Positions 1 to 887 of a stretch of 887 bases of DNA are shown in pieces. Source of the stretch: Escherichia coli. GTDB taxonomy: Bacteria > Pseudomonadota > Gammaproteobacteria > Enterobacterales > Enterobacteriaceae. The notes under the pieces are model-generated. The model saw nothing but the letters and a program-made list of their open reading frames with translations. It was not told the DNA's origin and did not search any database. Position numbers and translations under genes: made by a program. The stretch lies in NCBI RefSeq assembly GCF_003334305.1, contig NZ_QOWS01000067.1; one strand, 5' to 3'. How positions within the stretch are numbered: the first letter of the stretch is position 1; the number at the start of each line of letters is the position of its first letter.

Positions 1-69
1 CCCCTGCAGCGGGTCATAATAGCGGTGGCGGTTGTAATACAGGCCGGACTCCTCATCATACTGCTGCCC
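1..69 (-). other. N-terminal part of the RHS repeat-associated core domain (precedes the PxxxxDPxGL core/toxin boundary, which is off-window)
   Basis: Translation of nt 69..1 on the minus strand is [23 protein letters not shown]. The [20 protein letters not shown] pattern is the conserved opening of the Rhs core-associated domain. The domain is truncated by the window edge. Confidence 0.7.
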
Positions 70-887
70 CGGCAGCCGGATAAGCTGCTGCAGCTGATGC
101 GGGTTCTCTTCATTCAGCAGGTTGCCCCATTCATCATATTCTGCGCACCACGCTGTTGCCCCTTCCGTGCTGATGAGCGCCAGCGGCAGGCCGCGATGGT
201 CGCAGTGGTACAGGTGGATTTTTCGCGCCGGCGTGTACACCGGGTCCATCTGGTTTTGCATCTGCTCCACGGTCAGGCCGCACGATGCCAGCCAGCGGCG
301 GCTTTCCTCACTCACCCGGTCAGCCAGGATTTCACTTTCCAGCCGGTCGAGCATCTGCACCAGCACCGGCGGGAACACCACACTGCCACCGTCTTCGCCG
401 CCGGACTGCTGAAGCGCATCCGCCAGGCTGCGGCGCTGCGTTCTGGCCAGTTCACCGGTGGCAGTTTCAACTCTGATGAGTGGTGTGAAGCTCCCCGGCT
501 GATAAATCGTCTGGATGCGGCTCCTGTCGTTCTGTATCGTGGTCAGCCGGTCGCCGTCCCAGCCGTACCAGGTCACTTGCGGTTTCCGTGACAGCGACAT
601 CCAGCCCGTCAGGTCCCGTTCACGCCGCCATACCCGTTTTGCCACCCTGCGGCCCAGCGGGTCGTAAAGATAGCGACTTTCGACCAGCGGCTCTTCATAT
701 TGTGTCCGCGTGTAGTGCACCAGCCGGTGCTGACTGTCGTAATGGTACCGGTGAGTCCGCTCATCATCCGTGCGGATAACCCCTTCCGGGATGAGGTCGG
801 TTTTCTCTGTCAGCCTGCCGTGACGGTCATACCGGTAAAGATAGTGCGCGTCACGGGCGATACGGTTATCCGGCCACATGCTGAGGG
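1..887 (-). CDS. Rhs family YD-repeat core protein, internal fragment (C-terminal part of the conserved core; partial at both ends)
   Basis: Seen in sequence: the minus-strand frame with codons at + coordinates 3k+1..3k+3 is open for all 295 codons (first full codon 883-885, last 1-3). Hand translation, N->C: [295 protein letters not shown]. Established knowledge: it contains YD-repeat consensus motifs (YxYDxxGRL-like) and the [12 protein letters not shown] signature that opens the RHS repeat-associated core domain. From memory it closely resembles the E. coli RhsA/B/C-type core, but I cannot assign a paralogue or species, so no gene symbol is given. No start or stop codon of the gene lies in the window. 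Confidence 0.93.
544..843 (-). other. Block of four YD-repeat motifs within the Rhs core (protein-level repeats)
   Basis: Seen in the translation: [11 protein letters not shown] (aa 15-25, nt 811-843), [10 protein letters not shown] (aa 47-56, nt 718-747), [12 protein letters not shown] (aa 72-83, nt 637-672), WYGWDGDRL (aa 106-114, nt 544-570). Spacing between motifs is about 25-34 residues, as expected for RHS/YD beta-hairpin repeats. A further degenerate copy, [14 protein letters not shown], lies at nt 175-216. Confidence 0.8.

What the first reader, a model, noticed from the sequence alone, without database searches (positions are those of the whole stretch)
1..887. High GC (~61%) coding sequence, consistent with the known foreign-like composition of Rhs cores
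My hand count gives 544 G+C in 887 nt (~61%). Enterobacterial Rhs cores are known to be markedly more GC-rich than their roughly 50-52% GC host chromosomes, while the C-terminal toxin tips are AT-rich, which points to a composite, horizontally assembled origin. If the host is an enterobacterium, this window fits the GC-rich core compartment.
Basis: partly seen in the sequence, partly recalled or inferred. Interest (0 to 1): 0.25.

Follow-up and report, generated by a model that had tools for sequence, protein, structure and literature searches.

The report
GC-rich E. coli Rhs toxin core
The window is an ordinary piece of the conserved, GC-rich shell-forming "core" of an Escherichia coli Rhs toxin gene, and its high GC against a roughly 50% GC host and a 31% GC toxin tip has been described since the 1990s.

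Summary
In detail: 544 of 887 bases are G or C (61.3%). The coding strand is the minus strand. One open frame spans the whole window (295 aa) and matches positions 935-1229 of NCBI's 1261-position RHS core model (E = 2e-188).

The DNA is 100% identical to an Rhs gene of E. coli strain A7, lying between rpmE and yiiX. It is present, at a median of 5 copies, in 3889 of 5426 complete E. coli genomes.

A 336-kb sample of the A7 chromosome has 50.3% GC. Only 0.23% of 887-nt windows in that sample reach 61.3%, and no 3.7-kb window reaches the whole core's 62.0%. The step to AT-rich DNA lies 96 nt left of the window: the tip has 31% GC and encodes a DUF4329 domain.

Most of the excess is synonymous. 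GC3 is 73.9%, against 59.2% expected from this protein with local codon usage (z = 5.3), and rare E. coli codons such as CGG are over-used.

Polarised substitutions run towards AT at third positions (47 vs 22). Related cores in other enterobacteria range from 57 to 64% GC. Both results fit a core formed in a GC-richer background and slowly ameliorating.

All of this is already in the literature. Verdict: real, correctly interpreted, already known, low interest.

The parts
1..885 (-). Internal fragment (295 codons, residues 920-1214 of a 1394-aa protein) of an Rhs core ORF. It is open through the whole window and runs off both ends.
   Evidence: This is the only stop-free frame. It matches NF041261 RHS_core positions 935-1229/1261 at E = 2.3e-188. 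It lies inside CDS AOY58_RS01015 'RHS element core protein' of E. coli A7 at 100% identity.
703..831 (-). The last recognisable YD/RHS repeats of the beta-cocoon wall (window residues 19-61).
   Evidence: Matches are weak, as is usual for single repeats: Pfam RHS_repeat PF05593 at residues 19-61 and TIGR01643 YD_repeat_2x at residues 39-61. Residues 3-143 align to the Rhs shells of the solved structures Tse5 8cp6 and Salmonella bongori Rhs 8qjb-d.
232..456 (-). A segment of about 75 residues (window residues 144-218) with no repeat or family match. It is the most GC-rich part of the window.
   Evidence: Matches to solved Rhs chains cover only residues 3-143 and 219-292. GC is 70% in nt 351-450. 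The segment is conserved in RhsA, B, C and D.
109..219 (-). Pfam 'RHS protein' domain, the start of the conserved C-terminal plug / autoprotease region of the core.
   Evidence: PF03527 at residues 223-259, E = 4.7e-16.
4..138 (-). First 42 of 76 positions of the Rhs-associated core domain. The DPxGL-(18)-DPxGL cleavage motif itself lies outside the window, 10-96 nt to the left.
   Evidence: TIGR03696 at residues 250-294, 37.8 bits against a cutoff of 32.5. DPIGL and DPLGL sit at residues 1221 and 1243 of the full A7 protein.
25..591 (+). A 188-codon ORF on the opposite strand, in register with the real frame. It is a by-product of composition, not a gene.
   Evidence: The + frame 0 has a single stop in 295 codons. 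Stops in this mirror frame require sense codons TTA, CTA or TCA, of which the window has 0, 0 and 1.

Best explanation
The window is part of the conserved core of an E. coli Rhs polymorphic-toxin gene of the RhsA-B-C-F subfamily, read on the minus strand. It is 97-99% identical at DNA level to K-12 rhsA, rhsB and rhsC.

Shown here: the core encodes YD repeats followed by the Rhs-associated core domain. The gene then continues into a short, unrelated, AT-rich toxin tip, here a DUF4329 domain.

Inferred from solved homologues: the repeats form a closed beta-cocoon that encloses the toxin. An aspartyl autoprotease at DPxGL-(18)-DPxGL releases the toxin inside the shell. An N-terminal PAAR-like / DUF6531 region mounts the protein on a type VI secretion spike.

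The 61% GC belongs to the whole 3.7-kb core. It comes from three additive sources:
- it is coding;
- its protein is rich in amino acids with GC-rich codons (Arg, Gly, Asp, Thr, Pro, His);
- it has a strongly G/C-ending and partly rare-codon synonymous usage that does not match E. coli genes. This is the largest source.

The third source is best explained by the core having been formed in a GC-richer genome and joined to tips of different, AT-rich origin. It has since been drifting slowly towards the host composition.
For: Identity: RHS_core E = 2.3e-188; PF03527; 100% DNA identity to an annotated RHS core CDS; 96.4-97.5% core identity to K-12 rhsA/B/C and 77% to rhsD.

Composition of core and tip: core 62.0% and tip 31.1% in A7. 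The same step occurs in K-12 rhsA-D, with cores 61.3-63.3% and tips 36.7-41.6%. The switch lies 96 nt left of the window.

Host: 50.3% GC in the sample. The window is at the 99.8th percentile, and the full core lies beyond all 3067 host windows of the same size.

Partition of the excess: the expected GC with the same protein and flanking-gene codon usage is 56.1 +/- 1.0%, against 61.2% observed (z = 5.3). GC3 is 73.9% against 59.2% expected.

Codon usage: CGG makes up 29% of Arg codons against 6% in flanking genes, AGG 7.3% vs 0.7%, ATA 12% vs 3%, GTT 5% vs 25%. This is mutational-bias-like usage, not E. coli-optimal usage.

Non-equilibrium: changes within RhsA/B/C/F polarised with rhsD give 72 GC>AT vs 49 AT>GC (p = 0.045). 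At third positions the counts are 47 vs 22 (p = 0.0035); at positions 1 and 2 they are 25 vs 27.

Not intrinsic to the protein: full-length relatives in other Enterobacteriaceae have cores of 56.6-64.3% GC. Two of them, at 57.9% and 64.3%, sit in the same Citrobacter youngae genome. All of them have tips at 36-46%.

Literature: Jackson et al. 2009 (PMC2935791) describe the 'G+C rich conserved core' and 'A+T rich' core-extension and cite Wang, Zhao & Hill 1998. The cocoon, autocleavage and PAAR mechanism is in PMC8765631 and PMC8636562.
Against: The donor background is not identified. No GC-rich organism carrying a near-identical core was found: the nearest non-E. coli relatives are all Enterobacteriaceae with flanks of 50-58% GC.

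The AT-ward excess among recent changes is expected to some degree in any bacterial gene, because mutation is universally AT-biased. I ran no matched control set of ordinary E. coli genes.

Polarisation used a single outgroup that is 22% diverged, so parsimony errors are possible.

Host GC was estimated from a 336-kb sample, not the whole genome.

The source genome of the window is inferred from identity, not given.
Confidence: 0.9

Rival explanations
1. The high GC is intrinsic to the protein family. The YD-repeat cocoon needs many Arg, Gly, Asp, Pro and Thr residues, whose codons are GC-rich, so any Rhs core would be GC-rich in any host and no foreign origin is needed.
For: The core is enriched in Arg (9.9 vs 5.6%), Thr, His, Asp, Gly and Pro, and depleted in Lys, Ile and Phe, relative to flanking genes. 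With local codon usage this protein would already be 56.1% GC, against about 54% for neighbouring CDS and 50.3% for the genome. In Serratia marcescens the core also exceeds the tip, 67.7 vs 46.4% (PMC2935791).
Against: Amino-acid composition accounts for only about 2 of the roughly 11 points. Observed GC exceeds the amino-acid-constrained expectation by 5.3 SD, and the excess sits at third positions, 73.9 vs 59.2%. Homologous full-length cores are encoded at anything from 56.6 to 64.3% GC, including 57.9 and 64.3% within one genome.
Confidence: 0.05
2. The high GC is actively maintained inside E. coli. Candidate mechanisms are GC-biased gene conversion among the several nearly identical core copies per genome, or selection on synonymous sites, for example to avoid H-NS binding or spurious AT-rich promoters inside a 4-kb gene.
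For: Cores are multicopy, with a median of 5 places per genome and up to 15. They are 96-99% identical within the subfamily, so ectopic conversion is plausible. The phylogenetically incongruent sharing patterns of derived sites among A, B, C and F suggest exchange between copies.
Against: Polarised third-position changes run 47 GC>AT to 22 AT>GC (p = 0.0035). The implied equilibrium of about 54% GC is far below the present 62%. That is the opposite of what a force holding GC high would give. Over-use of rare codons (CGG, AGG, ATA) argues against translational selection.
Confidence: 0.05

Closest known systems
E. coli K-12 RhsA / RhsB / RhsC (RhsA-B-C-F core subfamily of Hill and co-workers; clade I of Jackson et al. 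2009)
   Same: The window protein is 97-100% identical to the K-12 RhsA, RhsB and RhsC segments. Whole-core DNA identity is 96.4-97.5%. The core length (3741 nt) and the DPIGL/DPLGL positions are the same, and so is the composition pattern: cores 61.3-62.0% GC, tips 31-42%.
   Different: The chromosomal site is different: between rpmE and yiiX next to an IS1-family element, whereas K-12 has no Rhs in that interval (own knowledge; one search shows the A7 site only). The tip is also different (DUF4329). The annotation 'dsORF-f3' for the downstream gene suggests this is the RhsF element described by Zhao & Hill 1995. I could not read that paper to confirm.
E. coli RhsD (RhsD-E subfamily)
   Same: Same architecture and composition (core 63.3%, tip 36.7%). 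The window segment is 79% identical at protein level.
   Different: The core is 22-23% diverged at DNA level and 11 codons longer, with DPMGL motifs. The window does not belong to this subfamily.
Structurally solved T6SS Rhs effectors (P. aeruginosa Tse5 8cp6, Salmonella bongori Rhs 8qjb-d, Photorhabdus Rhs1 7q97, A. baumannii Tse15 8uxt, P. protegens RhsA)
   Same: Window residues 3-143 and 219-292 align to the last shell repeats and to the C-terminal plug / autoprotease region of these chains, with E from 4e-25 to 1e-8. The cocoon, self-cleavage and PAAR/VgrG mounting mechanism is taken from these structures (PMC8765631, PMC8636562, PMC10684867).
   Different: The relation is only distant in sequence. 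Window residues 144-218 have no aligned counterpart. No structure or function was tested for the E. coli protein here.
TcB-TcC (ABC toxin) cocoons
   Same: These share the YD-repeat shell with an internal aspartyl autoprotease and an encapsulated hypervariable C-terminal toxin (own knowledge; PMC7861908 listed).
   Different: They are delivered by a TcA injectosome rather than T6SS. No sequence match was reported here at E <= 0.01.

Membership tests
RHS element core protein (NCBIfam NF041261; E. coli Rhs core) | Sequence match to the curated core profile | tested here: met
   The 295-aa fragment matches profile positions 935-1229 of 1261 end to end, at E = 2.3e-188 and 628.6 bits. The curated whole-protein cutoff of 2000 bits cannot be reached by a 295-aa fragment. 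The full A7 CDS is annotated by PGAP with this name.
RHS element core protein (E. coli Rhs core) | YD/RHS repeats followed by the Rhs-associated core domain ending in PxxxxDPxGL | tested here: met
   Inside the window: RHS_repeat and YD_repeat_2x matches, PF03527, and TIGR03696 at 37.8 bits against a cutoff of 32.5. In the 100%-identical A7 gene, just outside the window: PVNSMDPLGL at residues 1238-1247 and the pair DPIGL(1221)/DPLGL(1243).
RHS element core protein (E. coli Rhs core) | GC-rich core (about 62%) joined to a dissimilar AT-rich core extension, in a host of about 51% GC | tested here: met
   Core 62.0%, tip 31.1%, host sample 50.3%. This is the pattern stated in PMC2935791.
RhsA-B-C-F subfamily | Only a few percent core divergence within the subfamily, against 22-29% between subfamilies (Wang et al. 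1998, from memory; paper not held) | tested here: met
   2.5-3.6% divergence from rhsA, B and C; 22.6% from rhsD.
T6SS-delivered Rhs effector | N-terminal PAAR or PAAR-like domain and genetic linkage to vgrG / T6SS genes | tested here: inconclusive
   The N-terminus of the A7 protein has DUF6531 (E = 4.8e-18) but only a marginal PAAR_motif hit (E = 0.18). No vgrG, hcp or T6SS gene lies within 20 kb on either side in A7.
T6SS-delivered Rhs effector | Autoproteolysis, toxin encapsulation and toxicity neutralised by a cognate immunity protein | not testable with these tools
   Only the sequence motifs are seen. The downstream ORF (dsORF-f3) is annotated as frameshifted in A7.

The most novel reading that the evidence does not exclude
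The most novel reading not excluded is that the core's high synonymous GC is not just a fading relic of a GC-rich donor. It could be partly held up inside E. coli, by GC-biased conversion between the 4-6 core copies per genome or by selection against AT-rich, H-NS-bound or promoter-like sequence inside a very long ORF. Rhs cores would then be a natural reporter of biased gene conversion in enterobacteria. The AT-ward excess at third positions (47 vs 22) argues against this. It could still be reconciled if most of these changes are young, deleterious variants that are later removed.
Probability: 0.07. Interest if true: 0.35.

Novelty: already known. Interest (0 to 1): 0.07.

Why it matters
It matters little beyond correct annotation. 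The GC-rich core and AT-rich tip are a textbook feature of Rhs elements, used since the 1990s as evidence that they are composites acquired by E. coli.

For a genome scan, the practical value is this: a sharp fall from about 62% to about 31% GC just after the PxxxxDPxGL motif is a reliable landmark for the boundary between the conserved delivery shell and the exchangeable toxin. The long antisense ORF in such regions should not be called as a gene.

Tried and rejected
1. Plus-strand coding. The 188-aa ORF at 25..591 is rejected. It is the in-register mirror of the minus-strand frame and is open only because TTA, CTA and TCA codons are nearly absent. The minus frame has the E = 2e-188 family match.

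2. Reading Wang, Zhao & Hill 1998 (PMC107404) for the original GC analysis. The paper is not held, so statements about it rest on Jackson et al. 2009 and on memory.

3. Pfam scan of the full 1394-aa protein. I scanned the N-terminal 400 aa, the window and the tip separately.

4. NCBIfam search of the tip and of the 90-aa downstream ORF. No family was found.

5. Looking for a GC-rich donor. The donor background remains unidentified. The scan also did not return E. coli itself. I infer, untested, that the species representative is a strain lacking this subfamily, as do 28% of complete genomes.

6. A z-score against the host distribution is only 1.7, because the host distribution has a long low-GC tail. 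I therefore used the upper-tail fraction instead.

Full report
**Observation**

GC is uniformly high, at 56-70% in all 100-nt windows.

Six-frame translation shows a single frame without stops, on the minus strand (nt 885..1, 295 codons). Its GC1/GC2/GC3 are 66.4/43.4/73.9%.

**What it is**

- The 295-aa product matches NCBIfam NF041261 'RHS element core protein' over profile positions 935-1229 of 1261 (E = 2.3e-188). It also matches the Rhs-associated core domain TIGR03696 and a YD repeat.
- Pfam finds the 'RHS protein' domain PF03527 (E = 4.7e-16) and weak RHS repeats.
- Megablast against 5426 complete E. coli genomes finds the window in 3889 of them, at a median of 5 places per genome and almost always on the chromosome.
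- One hit is 100% identical: strain A7, NZ_CP028767.1 211770-212656. A further 1238 records are at least 99% identical. These hits are annotated rhsB, rhsC or 'RHS element core protein'.
- In A7 the window lies inside a 1394-aa CDS between rpmE and an IS1-family element / yiiX. A small downstream ORF there is annotated 'RHS element protein dsORF-f3'.
- The full protein ends its core at PVNSMDPLGL (residues 1238-1247). The window covers residues 920-1214, so the core-to-tip junction is 96 nt to the left of the window.
- The 147-aa tip is a DUF4329 domain. The N-terminus carries DUF6531 and a marginal PAAR motif.
- Whole-core DNA identity is 97.3, 97.5 and 96.4% to K-12 rhsA, rhsB and rhsC, and 77.4% to rhsD. 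This places the window in the RhsA-B-C-F subfamily.

**Is the composition unusual for the host?**

I sampled 336,378 bases of the A7 chromosome: the 36 kb flanking the element plus six 50-kb regions spread around the genome. This sample has 50.3% GC.

- Of 6591 host windows of 887 nt, 0.23% reach 61.3%. The 99th percentile is 59.6% and the maximum is 62.0%.
- For the complete 3741-nt core (62.0% GC), none of 3067 host windows of equal length comes close; their maximum is 58.9%.
- Around the element: the rest of the core has 62.6% GC, the last 96 nt of the core 50%, the tip 30.9%, the downstream ORF region 30.6%, and the 887 nt beyond the gene start 49.6%.
- K-12 rhsA-D show the same pattern, with cores at 61.3-63.3% and tips at 36.7-41.6%.

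**Where the excess comes from**

Neighbouring genes average GC1/2/3 of 62.4/42.0/58.9%. If the window's own amino-acid sequence were encoded with their codon usage, it would have 56.1 +/- 1.0% GC and 59.2% GC3. The observed values are 61.2% and 73.9%, a z of 5.3.

The roughly 11-point gap to the genome therefore splits into three parts:
- about 4 points for being coding;
- about 2 points for amino-acid composition (more Arg, Thr, His, Asp, Gly and Pro; less Lys, Ile and Phe);
- about 5 points for synonymous choice.

That synonymous choice is not E. coli-like. Shares within each amino acid's codons, core against flanking genes:

| Codon | Core | Flanking genes |
|---|---|---|
| CGG (Arg) | 29% | 6% |
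| AGG (Arg) | 7.3% | 0.7% |
| ATA (Ile) | 12% | 3% |
| CGT (Arg) | 19% | 43% |
| GTT (Val) | 5% | 25% |

Over-use of codons that are rare in E. coli points to a different mutational background rather than to translational selection.

**Testing the 'foreign, composite' reading against its rivals**

*Equilibrium.* I aligned the four ABCF-type cores and polarised the differences with rhsD.
- Overall there are 72 GC>AT and 49 AT>GC changes (p = 0.045), implying an equilibrium near 54% GC.
- At third codon positions the counts are 47 vs 22 (p = 0.0035). At first and second positions they are 25 vs 27.
- The core is therefore losing GC at silent sites. This fits amelioration of a sequence that arrived GC-rich and argues against a force holding GC high, such as biased gene conversion or selection.
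- Caveats: there is a single outgroup, 22% diverged; there is no matched control of native genes; and bacterial mutation is AT-biased in general.

*Intrinsic need.* One scan of 100,044 species representatives returned 29 related loci. All those on sizeable contigs are in Enterobacteriaceae: E. albertii, Citrobacter, Superficieibacter, Pseudocitrobacter, Yokenella, Trabulsiella, Serratia and Buttiauxella.
- Full-length relatives have cores from 56.6 to 64.3% GC against flanks of about 50-58%.
- Two intact genes in the same Citrobacter youngae genome have cores of 57.9 and 64.3% GC.
- Every one has a tip of 36-46% GC.
- The same fold can thus be encoded at quite different GC. What is constant is the drop in GC from core to tip, not the absolute GC of the core.
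- This fits cores and tips having separate histories, as in the C-terminal displacement model of Jackson et al. 2009.

**How it works** (inferred from homologues, not tested here)

Window residues 3-143 and 219-292 align to the last shell repeats and the C-terminal plug region of solved T6SS Rhs effectors: Tse5, Salmonella bongori Rhs, Photorhabdus Rhs1 and Tse15.

In those proteins the YD repeats form a closed beta-cocoon around the C-terminal toxin. An internal aspartyl protease cuts after the DPxGL motif, and an N-terminal PAAR-type domain mounts the effector on VgrG (PMC8765631, PMC8636562, PMC10684867).

The A7 gene has the motifs but no T6SS genes within 20 kb, so delivery by T6SS is undecided for this copy.

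**Comparison with the literature and novelty**

Jackson et al. 2009 (PMC2935791) summarise the work of Hill and colleagues. [quoted passage not shown] They show the same contrast in Serratia (67.7 vs 46.4%).

From memory, Wang, Zhao & Hill 1998 argued from substitution patterns that the subfamilies diverged in a GC-rich background before entering E. coli. I could not read that paper.

Everything found here reproduces these statements for one more copy. The finding is real and correctly interpreted, but already known, and I score its interest at 0.07.

Noticed in passing
window 25-591 (+), and the whole + frame 0: The antisense in-register frame has only one stop in 295 codons, giving a 188-aa ORF. 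It is open because the sense strand has 0 TTA, 0 CTA and 1 TCA codons. This is a typical shadow ORF of GC3-rich genes and a trap for gene callers.
   Followed up: yes
window 232-456 (-), protein residues 144-218 of the window: A segment of about 75 residues between the last YD repeats and the RHS domain has no aligned counterpart in any solved Rhs chain by sequence. It is conserved in RhsA-D and is the GC maximum of the window, at 70%. It may be an enterobacterial-specific insertion in the cocoon or plug.
   Followed up: partly
L001 19137-19495 and 18375-19067 (E. coli A7): The ORF downstream of the toxin tip, which would be the candidate immunity gene (annotated 'dsORF-f3'), is annotated as frameshifted, while the toxin ORF is intact. 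An IS1-family element and a frameshifted yiiX follow directly. The 90-aa ORF overlapping the Rhs stop codon has no NCBIfam match.
   Followed up: partly
L001 19464-19904 (-): The toxin tip is a DUF4329 domain (E = 4e-16) of unknown activity, with 31% GC.
   Followed up: partly
L001, 20 kb on each side of the Rhs gene: This Rhs copy sits between the housekeeping genes rpmE and metJ/yiiX, with no vgrG, hcp or other T6SS gene nearby. Its N-terminus has DUF6531 but only a marginal PAAR hit.
   Followed up: partly
L013, L020, L026, L028, L037, L039: Short contigs (0.5-3.5 kb) in genomes or MAGs labelled Collinsella, Bacillota, Candidatus Nanosynbacter, Sporosarcina and Terrisporobacter carry Rhs core pieces 73-94% identical to the E. 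coli protein. This is most likely enterobacterial contamination or mis-binning rather than true presence in those taxa.
   Followed up: no
L015 and L016 (Citrobacter youngae ATCC 29220): Two full-length Rhs genes in one genome have cores of 57.9% and 64.3% GC and tips of 38.8% and 36.7%. Cores of different compositional age or origin therefore coexist in one host.
   Followed up: partly
L002-L006 (E. coli A7 chromosome samples): Many normally intact genes are annotated as frameshifted in this assembly: entE, fepB, entH, btsT, a phage portal gene and several ETT2 type III secretion genes. Some of these may be assembly indel errors rather than real pseudogenes. That would also bear on the 'frameshifted' dsORF-f3 and yiiX next to the Rhs gene.
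   Followed up: no
E. coli genome search: 4 of the 20,057 matching places are on plasmids, so Rhs core sequence is occasionally plasmid-borne.
   Followed up: no
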